From Escherichia coli O127:H6 str. E2348/69 (GTDB taxonomy: Bacteria > Pseudomonadota > Gammaproteobacteria > Enterobacterales > Enterobacteriaceae), in the NCBI RefSeq assembly GCF_000026545.1, contig NC_011601.1: a DNA stretch of 64,000 nt; one strand, 5' to 3'. Numbering within the stretch: the stretch's first letter is position 1; every line of letters begins with the position of its first letter. A program made the position numbers. Shown here piece by piece: positions 39,001-42,000 of the stretch.

Positions 39001-42000
39001 TTCTATTACTTATGTAAATAAGTACAACCTTTTCATAGACACAAAAACTATGGCTGACGCATCACTTGCAATCAATTATCCATCATTAGATTAATATTTT
39101 CACTTATTTTTCAGAAGGTAAAAATAACTTTCTATGCGTTTAAAACACCCGCTATAAATATCTTGTATATTATTGACACTATATGATGCTATATGATACT
39201 TGTTGCCAAATTGTTCATTACAAACCAGATAGGAGAATCTCTCATGATAAATGGACTTAATAATGACTCCGCATCTTTAGTTTTAGATGCTGCAATGAAA
39301 GTTAATTCTGGGTTTAAAAAAAGCTGGGATGAGATGTCATGCGCTGAAAAGTTACTTAAAGTACTTAGTTTTGGTTTATGGAATCCAACGTACAGTCGTA
39401 GTGAAAGACAATCATTTCAAGAGTTGTTAACCGTTTTAGAGCCTGTATATCCACTTCCCAATGAATTAGGCAGAGTATCTGCTCGTTTTTCAGATGGCTC
39501 ATCCTTAAGAATTTCCGTCACTAACAGCGAAAGTATTGAAGCCGAGATTCGCACACCAGATAATGAAAAGATTACTGTGCTCCTGGAGTCAAACGAACAA
39601 AATAGGTTATTACAATCTTTACCCATCGATCGCCACATGCCATACATTCAGGTTCATCGTGCCTTATCTGAGATGGACCTGACTGATACTACCTCAATGC
39701 GCAATCTACTTGGTTTTACGTCAAAACTATCAACAACCTTGATTCCTCATAATGCTCAAACAGATCCGCTTTCCGGGCCTACACCATTCAGCTCTATCTT
39801 TATGGATACATGTCGAGGACTCGGCAATGCAAAGCTTTCACTCAATGGTGTTGATATACCTGCAAATGCACAAATGTTGCTTCGCGATGCACTAGGACTT
39901 AAAGACACACACTCATCACCTTCCCGGAATGTTATAGATCATGGTATTTCTCGCCATGATGCAGAGCAAATAGCAAGAGAAAGCAGCGGCAGCGATAATC
40001 AGAAAGCTGAAGTTGTGGAATTTTTATGCCATCCAGAAGCAGCAACGGCCATATGCTCGGCTTTCTATCAATCTTTCAATGTGCCAGCCTTAACGTTGAC
40101 ACATGAAAGGATCTCTAAAGCCAGTGAATACAATGCGGAAAGATCGTTAGATACACCTAACGCTTGCATTAACATCAGTATCTCTCAATCATCAGATGGA
40201 AACATTTATGTTACCAGCCATACCGGGGTTCTGATAATGGCGCCAGAAGACCGCCCCAACGAGATGGGCATGTTGACGAACAGGACTTCTTATGAAGTGC
40301 CGCAAGGTGTGAAATGTACAATCGATGAAATGGTAAGAGCGCTACAACCAAGGTATGCCGCATCTGAAACGTACTTACAAAACACTTAAAATAAAACTTT
40401 ATTAATCAAAACCAATAATAGAAATCACACCCACAATTATTAACAATTTATCCTGAAGTTAATTACAATCAAACAAAAATATTTGTTCTGCAAACAATTT
40501 ACAGTAAATAGAGAAAATGAAAAGAAAACCATTAATTGCATTTTTCATTGCGATATTTATTATGCTAACCATATTAATATTATTTCCATTTAATTGTACT
40601 TACAAAAAATCACCTCAAGAACACTCACTTTCATTTATAAAACAATTACCAAATACGGTGAACTTATCATCTCTTACTTATAATAAAGAGGATGATTTCC
40701 TGTATGCCACCCAGAATAGCCCTGCACAGCTACTTAAAATAACCAAAAGTGGCGACATCATGGACAGAGCCCCGCTGCCTTTTATCTCTGATGCTGAAAC
40801 AATTGAACACATACAAGGGAACATTTTTGCTGCAGTAGACGAAAAGACTTCTGAACTATTCTTTTTTACAGTTACAAAAGATATGCATATCTCCTTTCGA
40901 AATAAAATTCAGTTAGAAAAATTCAATAAAAAGAATAGAGGGTTTGAAGGGCTGGCATGGAAAGCAGATGATCGGATGCTGTTTGTCGCAAAAGAAAGAC
41001 GCCCAAGTAAAATATTTATATATCAACTTTCTTCAGACCTGCTGAGTGTAAAGCAAGCAACTATTCCAGAGGCACTAAATGATATACGTGTTAACGATAT
41101 ATCCGGCCTGGCCTTTAATAATGAAAGTCTGATGATTCTGTCCGATGAATCGCGTAAATTACTCAAGTTTAACCTGACAGAGATGTCTTTCATTGAGATG
41201 CTTGACCTGACAAAAGGAAATCATTCTCTGACCAGTGATTTGCCCCAACCTGAAGGAATTGTAACTCTGCCTGATGAAAGCATTTATGTTGCCAGTGAAC
41301 CTGATATCCTCGCGAAATTTGTCCCTAATAAGTAAGTCTGTCACTGGCCTTATTATTTATCGACCAAATCTGGCAATCTCATAAAGTTATAAAAATACGA
41401 GTATAATTTCACGCTAAATAAACACATTAATAGCTGAAAAGGACATCAGCTATTATCAACCAGAATCTTACTCAGTCTATTAGGATTATCAGACTTATAT
41501 TAGATCCTACAATATATTTAATTTGTATGCAGAATAGAGTGTTCACACCACATCTGGTATAGAAAAGCACAGGCTAGCAAAAACCTGAATAACCCCGTAC
41601 TTACGGAGTTATTCAGGTTAAAAATATCCATAACATCACTTCTGATTTTTATTGCTTACGACGGATATAATTTCTCTGGTCAGCTACTAATATCATCATG
41701 CTCACGCGTTTAATCAAACTCGTGTTTCTCAAACGGACATCGCGGGACAATCTTCTGCTTCTCCCGGCGCATTTTTACCACCTTCGCTACCTGCATTTTG
41801 AGCGGAAGATCCGCTTTTTTCTGGCCCCCGCACATATGCAAGTCCAGTTTTAAATTTATCCTTTATTTCATTCTGAAACAAACTGCTCATAATTTTCTCC
41901 AGTGGAACCTGCATCTCAGGGAGACATCACTACAGAATACTTCCCCTTATGCACTGATTTAATTTTGGTCATTTAGAATAACGGCCTGTAAAGGCTCAAT

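What the first reader, a model, noticed from the sequence alone, without database searches (positions are those of the whole stretch)
41583..41914. Unannotated small ORF with a good Shine-Dalgarno and a downstream hairpin in the LEE to setC junction
On the minus strand, GGAGAAAATT-ATG starts a 53-codon ORF ([56 protein letters not shown] near 41890, stop at 41729). It lies in a patch that is visibly more GC-rich than the surrounding LEE DNA and is followed about 110 bp downstream by a hairpin (41583..41617) ending in a T-run on that strand. It could be a genuine small protein or a relic of displaced backbone sequence.
Basis: seen in the sequence. Interest (0 to 1): 0.45.

Follow-up and report, generated by a model that had tools for sequence, protein, structure and literature searches.

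The report
Leftover gene fragments, not a gene
The small reading frame at the edge of the LEE virulence island is an accidental by-product of two broken genes that a deletion fused together (the start of a type VI secretion sheath gene and the tail of an acetyltransferase gene), so it is ordinary genomic debris and not a new small protein.

Summary
The minus strand carries GGAG-N6-ATG (41900-41888), a 53-codon ORF ending at 41729 (61 codons from an upstream ATG), and a strong hairpin with a U-run 110 nt downstream.

The ORF is not a gene. Its ribosome-binding site, ATG and first 9 codons (MSSLFQNEI) are the inherited start of a tssB gene (type VI secretion sheath small subunit). An 8-nt deletion after 41865 shifts the frame. 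At about 41794-41781 the tssB relic is fused, across a short shared motif, to the last ~37 codons of a yjdJ-like GNAT acetyltransferase gene, which the ORF reads out of frame.

The hairpin is that GNAT gene's own terminator. It is conserved downstream of yjdJ-like genes elsewhere.

RefSeq annotates a sister genome at this position as "GNAT partial" plus "TssB frameshifted partial".

The frame is not conserved:
- 45 of 383 genomes carrying the segment match the window across the A-run indel site.
- 337 do not; every sampled one (O157:H7, O55:H7, O145) has one extra A, giving an 80-codon ORF with a different tail.
- One further allele gives 60 codons.

The segment is island DNA, not K-12 backbone. 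The ORF is already deposited as a hypothetical protein. Interest is low.

The parts
41729..41890 (-). The 53-codon ORF of the finding, plus stop (61 codons if started at ATG 41914). It is an accidental frame across a tssB'-'GNAT chimeric pseudogene.
   Evidence: No NCBIfam match for the ORF product. Only residues MSSLFQNEI match TssB (8 of 9).
41888..41900 (-). GGAG-N6-ATG: the Shine-Dalgarno and start codon inherited from tssB.
   Evidence: It aligns column for column with GGAGAGAGTCATG of the intact tssB in strain E143 (L004, tssB 3616-4113 minus strand).
41786..41887 (-). tssB 5' coding relic (about 35 codons). Codons 1-9 are in the ORF frame. An 8-nt deletion lies between 41865 and 41864. 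The native frame then continues as [24 protein letters not shown] in a different frame.
   Evidence: It also matches TIGR03358 at E = 5.5e-5 and Pfam T6SS_VipA positions 2-47 of 155.
41901..42009 (-). tssB leader and promoter relic. The counterpart of an 11/12 sigma-70-like site (TTGAGA-18-TATAAT) in intact loci lies at about 41999-41971. Here its -10 hexamer has lost one base (CTATAATG became CTA-AATG).
   Evidence: Promoter-like site in L004. Alignment of window, L004 and L012. No promoter-like site on the minus strand upstream of the ORF in the window.
41781..41794 (-). Fusion point between the tssB relic and the GNAT relic, at a shared GCTGGTKGC-like motif (microhomology).
   Evidence: Alignments (tssB ..CTGCTGGTTGCC.., yjdJ ..CAGCTGGTTGCG.., window ..ATGCAGGTAGCG..), coordinates. 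That the deletion arose by microhomology is an inference.
41680..41790 (-). 3' relic of a yjdJ-like GNAT acetyltransferase gene: [35 protein letters not shown]. It has lost one codon, has a premature TAA at 41712-41710, and keeps the native stop at 41682-41680. The ORF of the finding reads this stretch out of frame.
   Evidence: 31 of 40 residues are identical to K-12 YjdJ, E = 2e-19. Pfam Acetyltransf_CG positions 50-80 of 80. DNA is 88% identical to the annotated GNAT gene in the LEE flank of strain Z1323CEC0001.
41772..41776 (-). A5 run where lineages differ in length: A5 in the window and E2348/69-type genomes; one extra A in O157:H7, O55:H7 and O145; the full GGAAAAAA (GNAT frame intact) in Z1323CEC0015.
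   Evidence: Alignment. ORFs per allele of 53, 80 and 60 codons. Allele counts 45 against 337 genomes. A second run, A6 at 41815-41820, varies in protein variant P0034.
41577..41619 (-). Intrinsic-terminator-like hairpin (41619-41582) plus U-run (41581-41577). It is the terminator that came with the GNAT gene.
   Evidence: Fold z = -5.05. The hairpin is conserved about 65 nt downstream of yjdJ-like stop codons in L003 and L006 (fold -26.9 kcal/mol). In L011 the aligned stretch reads AATAACCCCGCATATGCAGGGTTATT, a palindrome by eye that the script did not fold.
41336..41485 (.). Tail of the LEE after rorf1, shared with LEE islands at other insertion sites.
   Evidence: Window 41336-41463 is 97.7% identical in strain 95JB1. 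The tail is 79-97% identical in L003, L006 and L002.
42011..42243 (+). Two setC fragments that mark the start of backbone DNA. 42011-42071 corresponds to setC nt 172-232 (87%). 42069-42243 corresponds to the last 175 nt of setC (95%). About 780 nt between them are deleted.
   Evidence: blastn and alignment to K-12. PGAP annotates 'MFS transporter, internal stop, incomplete' here.

Best explanation
The ORF is a non-functional by-product of gene decay at the rorf1-side edge of the LEE, next to setC.

Inferred history: the LEE flank once carried a yjdJ-like GNAT acetyltransferase gene and, further out on the same strand, a type VI secretion cluster beginning with tssB. A deletion between short matching motifs joined tssB codon ~33 to GNAT codon ~54 and removed everything in between. 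Later an 8-nt deletion, homopolymer slippage and point mutations, including a nonsense codon, broke the chimera further.

Shown directly: what is left is the tssB ribosome-binding site and ATG, about 35 tssB codons, about 37 GNAT codons and the GNAT terminator hairpin.

The likely tssB promoter has a damaged -10 element. I therefore expect little or no dedicated transcription and no selected product. At most, the hairpin still stops stray minus-strand transcription before it runs antisense into rorf1 and espG.
For: 1. Homology of each piece.
- The Shine-Dalgarno, ATG and codons 1-9 align with tssB of L004.
- The other-frame continuation matches TssB residues 13-38, and the next 37 codons match YjdJ residues 54-90.

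2. Independent annotation. In strain Z1323CEC0015, which has the same junction, PGAP annotates 'GNAT family N-acetyltransferase, missing N-terminus' next to 'type VI secretion system contractile sheath small subunit, frameshifted, missing C-terminus'.

3. The frame is not conserved.
- ORFs from the same ATG are 53, 80 and 60 codons in three alleles.
- 45 genomes match the window across the indel site and 337 do not.
- A further variant switches frame at another A-run.
- PGAP itself picks a different 35-aa frame in O157 and flags the window allele as frameshifted.

4. Decay signature. Relative to Z1323CEC0015, whose GNAT tail equals YjdJ, the window has 7 amino-acid changes, one nonsense codon and one lost codon against 2 synonymous changes.

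5. The hairpin belongs to the GNAT gene. It is conserved downstream of yjdJ-like genes in L003, L006 and L011.

6. Context. Another LEE variant carries the GNAT gene, type VI relics and a tssB-upstream element on the same strand within 13 kb.

7. The promoter-like site of intact tssB is damaged in the window.

8. There is no extra conservation. The segment is 99.6-99.7% identical between the window and O157, against 98.4-100% for its neighbours.

9. No Rfam family matches, and the Sakai ribosome-profiling supplements hold no entry for this locus.
Against: - The inherited Shine-Dalgarno and ATG are intact and identical in all three alleles aligned (window, O157, Z1323CEC0015), so translation is possible if an mRNA exists.
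- The whole 0.5-kb segment is almost invariant across the 383 genomes. That leaves no power to measure selection and does not exclude constraint.
- In the short stretch where the window and Z1323CEC0015 differ, the ORF frame shows 3 synonymous changes, 2 non-synonymous changes and a stop loss. That is mildly better than the GNAT frame but far from significant.
- I had no RNA-seq or ribosome-profiling data for this strain. The literature negatives are weak, because the supplements may be truncated and cover only novel ORFs.
- The order of mutational events and the microhomology mechanism are inferred, not shown.
Confidence: 0.9

Rival explanations
1. A genuine, recently born small protein. The intact tssB ribosome-binding site drives translation of a 53-aa (EPEC-type) or 80-aa (O157-type) remodelled product that has acquired a role in the island.
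For: A good Shine-Dalgarno and ATG are retained and identical in the three aligned alleles. A terminator lies downstream. Several genome submissions annotate the ORF. Out-of-frame remodelled genes are reported in the E. coli pangenome (title and abstract of PMC8788219, listed).
Against: The C-terminal third differs completely between lineages: 53, 80 and 60 codons. There is no family match. The tail is low in complexity and rich in Gly, Ser, Ala and Glu. There is no promoter-like site upstream, and the ancestral -10 is damaged. The next locus tag after rorf1 (E2348C_3971), which I assume without verification to be this ORF, does not appear in the Ler-regulon paper. The Sakai small-gene ribosome-profiling supplements hold no entry. 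ORFs of this length are expected by chance.
Confidence: 0.04
2. A non-coding RNA. A roughly 300-400 nt minus-strand transcript starts in the tssB leader relic and ends at the hairpin, acting as a regulatory RNA or as an antisense or insulating transcript at the island edge.
For: A strong terminator-like hairpin with a U-run. A former promoter region lies upstream. Pathogenicity islands are reported to be rich in small RNAs (PMC8565820).
Against: There is no Rfam match even at E up to 1. No promoter-like site survives. The hairpin is fully explained as the GNAT gene's terminator. The named small RNAs lie elsewhere: Arl and sRNA350 are LEE-encoded, downstream of ler and of cesF respectively, and Esr41 is in OI-43. 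The sequence varies too little to test structure by covariation.
Confidence: 0.05
3. A relic of the displaced K-12-type backbone between selC and setC.
For: The ORF sits next to setC remnants, and GC content rises here towards backbone values.
Against: K-12 and more than 4,000 other genomes match only from window 42069 rightwards in megablast, and from 42011 in a sensitive search. Nothing in 41336-42010 matches the selC-setC region. The ORF region instead matches tssB and yjdJ-like genes, and the same GNAT gene sits in the flank of a differently organised LEE variant (strain Z1323CEC0001).
Confidence: 0.01

Closest known systems
TssB (VipA), the small subunit of the type VI secretion contractile sheath; for example WP_001421634.1 of E. 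coli E143; Pfam PF05591, NCBIfam TIGR03358
   Same: The leader, Shine-Dalgarno, ATG and first ~35 codons are homologous: about 75% DNA identity over 224 nt. 27 of 35 comparable residues are identical after frame repair (38 aligned positions, 3 of them placeholders for the deleted codons).
   Different: Only about 35 of 165 codons remain. An 8-nt deletion shifts the frame after codon 9. There is no tssC or any other type VI gene nearby, and the promoter-like -10 is damaged.
YjdJ of E. coli K-12 (WP_000405651.1, a 90-aa GNAT of the Acetyltransf_CG type, PF14542) and the LEE-flank GNAT WP_000152416.1
   Same: The last 37 codons, the downstream spacer and the terminator hairpin are homologous: 31 of 40 residues identical to YjdJ, and 88% DNA identity to the LEE-flank copy.
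   Different: The N-terminal ~53 codons are missing, one codon is lost, and a nonsense codon sits 9 codons before the native stop. The ORF of the finding reads this DNA in the wrong frame.
Deposited hypothetical proteins at this locus: the 53-aa CAS11520.1 and relatives, the 61-aa form, and Sakai ECs_4592 / NP_312619.2 / WP_115801858.1 (35 aa)
   Same: Same DNA and same stop codon. The 53-aa entry is identical to the finding's ORF.
   Different: ECs_4592 starts inside the tssB relic in the tssB frame, passes into the GNAT frame, and reaches the finding's frame only through the extra A. It shares just the last 14 residues. None of these entries has a function or a family.
Gene remnants in LEE flanking regions (general description citing Muller et al. 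2009, in PMC3408504)
   Same: Flanks outside the 41-gene core vary in content and hold remnants of other elements.
   Different: I found no paper that names this particular tssB'-'GNAT chimera.

Membership tests
TssB/VipA (PF05591, TIGR03358) | Sequence match to the family profile | tested here: met
This is only the N-terminal quarter, and the 23 bits are far below the curated cut-off of 97.
TssB/VipA (PF05591, TIGR03358) | Intact full-length reading frame of about 160 aa | tested here: not met
   An 8-nt deletion after codon 9, and fusion to GNAT DNA after about codon 35.
TssB/VipA (PF05591, TIGR03358) | Adjacent tssC and other type VI genes | tested here: not met
   The neighbours are rorf1, setC fragments and yicL. 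In E143, tssC follows tssB.
YjdJ-type GNAT acetyltransferase (PF14542) | Sequence match to the family | tested here: met
   31 of 40 residues identical to K-12 YjdJ residues 51-90, E = 2e-19. PF14542 positions 50-80 of 80, E = 8e-4.
YjdJ-type GNAT acetyltransferase (PF14542) | Complete domain in an open frame | tested here: not met
   The first ~50 profile positions are absent, there is a premature TAA at 41712-41710, and one codon is lost.
Bona fide small protein gene | Reading frame and length conserved across lineages that carry the locus | tested here: not met
   53, 80 and 60 codons in three alleles. 45 genomes match the window across the indel site and 337 do not. A further frame-switch variant exists, P0034.
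Bona fide small protein gene | Excess of synonymous over non-synonymous change in the proposed frame | tested here: inconclusive
   Only about 6 informative differences lie in the ORF (3 synonymous, 2 non-synonymous, 1 stop loss against Z1323CEC0015). This is too few to test.
Bona fide small protein gene | Ribosome-binding site and start codon | tested here: met
   GGAG-N6-ATG is present, but it is explained as the inherited tssB start.
Bona fide small protein gene | Evidence of transcription and translation | not testable with these tools
   Only weak literature negatives: no occurrence of the next locus tag (E2348C_3972, assumed to be this ORF) in the Ler microarray paper, and no entry in the Sakai Ribo-seq supplements.
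Rho-independent terminator | GC-containing stem-loop immediately followed by a U-run | tested here: met
   A 16-17 bp stem, then UUUUUGCU, z = -5.05. Conserved downstream of GNAT genes. Not listed by the consensus scan.
Rho-independent terminator | Actual termination of a transcript | not testable with these tools
   Needs Term-seq or a reporter assay.
Known small RNA families (Rfam 15) | Covariance-model match | tested here: not met
   No match at E up to 1 in 41000-42500 on either strand.

The most novel reading that the evidence does not exclude
The tssB'-'GNAT wreck may have been taken over for a new use. The intact tssB translation start and the GNAT terminator would then frame a lineage-specific small protein (53 aa in EPEC O127:H6-type strains, 80 aa in O157:H7) or a small RNA at the LEE border. 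That would be a caught-in-the-act case of gene birth by out-of-frame remodelling inside a virulence island.
Probability: 0.04. Interest if true: 0.35.

Novelty: already known. Interest (0 to 1): 0.08.

Why it matters
It matters mainly as a clean-up. ECs_4592 of Sakai, the 53-aa and 61-aa hypothetical proteins of EPEC genomes, and the RefSeq 'frameshifted hypothetical protein' are all artefacts of one decayed tssB'-'GNAT chimera and should be annotated as pseudogene fragments.

A minor by-product concerns LEE history. The selC-type LEE still carries scars of a type VI secretion cluster and a yjdJ-like gene, which another LEE variant retains in fuller form. The island/backbone junction lies at about 42010, inside a doubly broken setC.

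Tried and rejected
- **K-12 backbone origin.** Rejected. Megablast and sensitive blastn give K-12 homology only from 42069 and 42011 rightwards.
- **Known small RNA.** Rfam gave nothing. I suspected Esr41 or sRNA350 from memory, but a review places Esr41 in OI-43 and sRNA350 downstream of cesF.
- **Literature on the locus tags.** Only a Ler microarray paper turned up. It lists E2348C_3971 as rorf1 and never mentions the next tag. Searches for rorf1/yicL/sRNA and rorf1/selC/flanking found no description of this junction.
- **Sakai ribosome-profiling small-gene supplements.** No hit by locus tag, peptide or coordinate. This is a weak negative, because only text-held files were searched.
- **Two 507-aa members of the 53-aa protein's 90% cluster.** They are membrane proteins with no visible similarity to the 53-aa ORF, so I treat them as a clustering artefact.
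- **A sequence match between the window's tssB relic and the flank in L012.** blastn (word size 9, E up to 1e-3) found none. The multiple alignment shows that L012 keeps only the tssB-upstream element.
- **Searches not run.** I did not run the large protein-database or collection scans, because the locus was already explained and they could not change the verdict.
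Full report
**Setting**

The window holds tRNA-Sec at 6278-6372. At the far end of the LEE it holds espG (39193-40389, +) and rorf1, annotated as an SdiA-regulated-domain gene (40517-41335, +). Beyond these lie yicL (42354-43277, +) and nlpA (43281-44099, -). The finding lies in the 1-kb gap between rorf1 and yicL. Over the 70-509 nt stretches compared, the window is identical to O127:H6 / E2348/69-type genomes.

**Check of the observation**

- The minus strand reads GGAGAAAATTATG, with GGAG at 41900-41897 and ATG at 41890.
- The ORF gives exactly the quoted 53 residues and stops at 41731-41729. The ORF listing extends it to 61 codons from an ATG at 41914 that lacks a Shine-Dalgarno.
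- The hairpin lies at 41619-41582, followed by UUUUU, 110 nt after the stop. It folds far better than shuffles (z = -5.05, 0 of 200) and is unique in the window.
- ORF length is not remarkable. The window has 137 ATG-ORFs of at least 53 codons, against about 79 in shuffles.
- The GC rise is a step towards backbone values, not a patch.

**What the DNA is**

Megablast against 5,426 complete E. coli genomes shows that K-12-like genomes match only from 42069 rightwards, in setC. The 733 bp from 41336 to 42068 occur in just 383 genomes.

A sensitive search splits that stretch into pieces of different origin:
- 41486-41794 is 88% identical to a LEE variant in strain Z1323CEC0001, where a minus-strand GNAT acetyltransferase gene is annotated.
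- 41680-41781 is about 80% identical to K-12 yjdJ.
- 41786-42009 is about 75% identical to the 5' end and upstream region of tssB in strain E143.

Translation of the three minus-strand frames makes the structure plain:
- The ORF frame begins MSSLFQNEI. TssB begins MSSSFQNEI.
- A second frame continues [24 protein letters not shown]. TssB has RVNLKLDLHTGGGQKKVELPLKLL.
- That frame then runs without a break into [35 protein letters not shown]. YjdJ has [37 protein letters not shown].

The DNA alignment shows three things:
- The window's Shine-Dalgarno and ATG sit on those of tssB.
- An 8-nt deletion follows 41865.
- The tssB/GNAT joint lies at about 41794-41781, on a shared GCTGGTKGC-like motif.

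| Comparison | Result |
|---|---|
| BLASTP against TssB | E = 4e-17 |
| BLASTP against YjdJ | E = 2e-19 |
| NCBIfam TIGR03358 | E = 5.5e-5 |
| Pfam T6SS_VipA (positions 2-47 of 155) | E = 5.7e-5 |
| Pfam Acetyltransf_CG (positions 50-80 of 80) | E = 8e-4 |

The ORF product itself matches no family, and it matches TssB only in its first nine residues.

RefSeq's own pipeline reaches the same reading in strain Z1323CEC0015, which has the same junction. It annotates 'GNAT, missing N-terminus' next to 'TssB, frameshifted, missing C-terminus'.

**The hairpin**

It lies about 65 nt after the native GNAT stop (41682-41680). It is conserved downstream of yjdJ-like genes in L003 and L006. In L011, the chromosomal yjdI-yjdJ locus of another E. 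coli, the aligned stretch is also palindromic by eye, though the script did not fold it. It is therefore the terminator that came with the GNAT gene, not a feature of the ORF.

**Frame conservation**

Three alleles of the junction exist.

| Allele | Difference at the A-run (41776-41772) | ORF from the same ATG |
|---|---|---|
| Window / E2348/69 type | A5 | 53 codons |
| O157:H7, O55:H7, O145 | one extra A | 80 codons, unrelated C-terminus |
| Z1323CEC0015 | three more bases, GNAT frame intact | 60 codons |

- A 70-nt probe over the indel counts 45 genomes identical to the window and 337 that are not.
- A deposited variant, P0034, changes frame at a second A-run.
- PGAP annotates a different 35-aa frame in O157 (ECs_4592 / WP_115801858.1) and marks the window allele as frameshifted.
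- Relative to Z1323CEC0015, the window's GNAT tail has 7 amino-acid changes, a nonsense codon and a lost codon against 2 synonymous changes. That is the pattern of a pseudogene.
- The segment is no better conserved between the window and O157 than its neighbours: 99.6-99.7% against 98.4-100%.

**Expression signals**

- Intact tssB in L004 has an 11/12 sigma-70-like site about 80 nt upstream, and the same element is present in L012.
- In the window its -10 has lost a base.
- No promoter-like site is found on the minus strand upstream of the ORF.
- There is no Rfam match.
- The small RNAs named in the review lie elsewhere: Arl and sRNA350 within the LEE (downstream of ler and of cesF), and Esr41 in OI-43.
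- The locus is absent from the Ler-regulon lists and from the Sakai Ribo-seq small-gene supplements. Both are weak negatives.

**Origin (inferred)**

In the LEE variant of Z1323CEC0001, three things lie on the same strand within 13 kb: the GNAT gene, type VI relics (VasL and ImpA fragments) and a tssB-upstream element. They are interrupted by insertion sequences. A deletion between tssB and the GNAT gene in such an arrangement would give the chimera seen here.

The island/backbone joint is at about 42010. Window 42011-42071 corresponds to setC nt 172-232, and 42069-42243 to the last 175 nt of setC.

**Verdict**

They are the start signals of one dead gene and the terminator of another. The ORF between them is an accidental frame that is not conserved. 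It is already deposited as a hypothetical protein. It is ordinary and of low interest. A residual chance of about 4-5% each remains that a small protein or an RNA is made from the wreck.

Noticed in passing
window 42011-42243: setC is broken twice. A 61-nt piece matching setC nt 172-232 (87%) is joined directly to the last 175 nt (95%), with about 780 nt missing between them, and an in-frame stop lies in the 3' piece. The island/backbone junction is therefore at about 42010, not at 42069 where megablast homology starts.
   Followed up: partly
window 42069-44099 (setC 3' end, yicL, nlpA): These backbone genes are 99.2-100% identical between the window (O127:H6-type) and O157:H7 but only 94.8-96.6% identical to K-12. 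This suggests the flank travelled with the LEE or was replaced by recombination.
   Followed up: partly
L006 3422-3950 compared with window 41486-42010: Mosaic divergence in strain Z1323CEC0015. The tssB relic is 99% identical to the window, but the adjacent GNAT relic is only 88% identical, and is 99.7% identical to the Z1323CEC0001 copy. This implies a recombination breakpoint close to the chimera joint.
   Followed up: partly
window 40390-40516 (espG-rorf1 intergenic region): This 127-nt spacer has 10 mismatches (92.1%) between the window and O157:H7, while the flanking genes are 98.4-99.0% identical. It is a local hotspot of divergence.
   Followed up: no
window 41800-41816, + strand: A terminator-like hairpin GAGCGGAAGATCCGCTT followed by TTTTTTCTGG lies on the opposite strand inside the ORF, about 465 nt after the rorf1 stop. 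It could end rorf1 read-through, or it could be chance.
   Followed up: no
window 41518-41631, minus strand: A 37-codon ORF (MDIFNLNNSVSTGLFRFLLACAFLYQMWCEHSILHTN) with a hydrophobic core runs through the terminator hairpin. A 1-nt indel in L003 and L006 falls within it, so the frame does not look conserved. I did not translate those alleles. It is probably chance.
   Followed up: partly
L003 3081-3956; L012 1-13500: The LEE variant of strain Z1323CEC0001 has an extra 876-nt hypothetical gene between rorf1 and the GNAT gene. Its flank is full of relics: DUF3491, type VI VasL and ImpA fragments, two-partner-secretion fragments, and IS256, IS66 and IS3 elements.
   Followed up: no
protein cluster of P0001, members P0008 and P0014: Two 507-aa membrane proteins with no visible similarity to the 53-aa ORF are listed as members of its 90% cluster. 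I take this to be a clustering artefact in the collection.
   Followed up: yes
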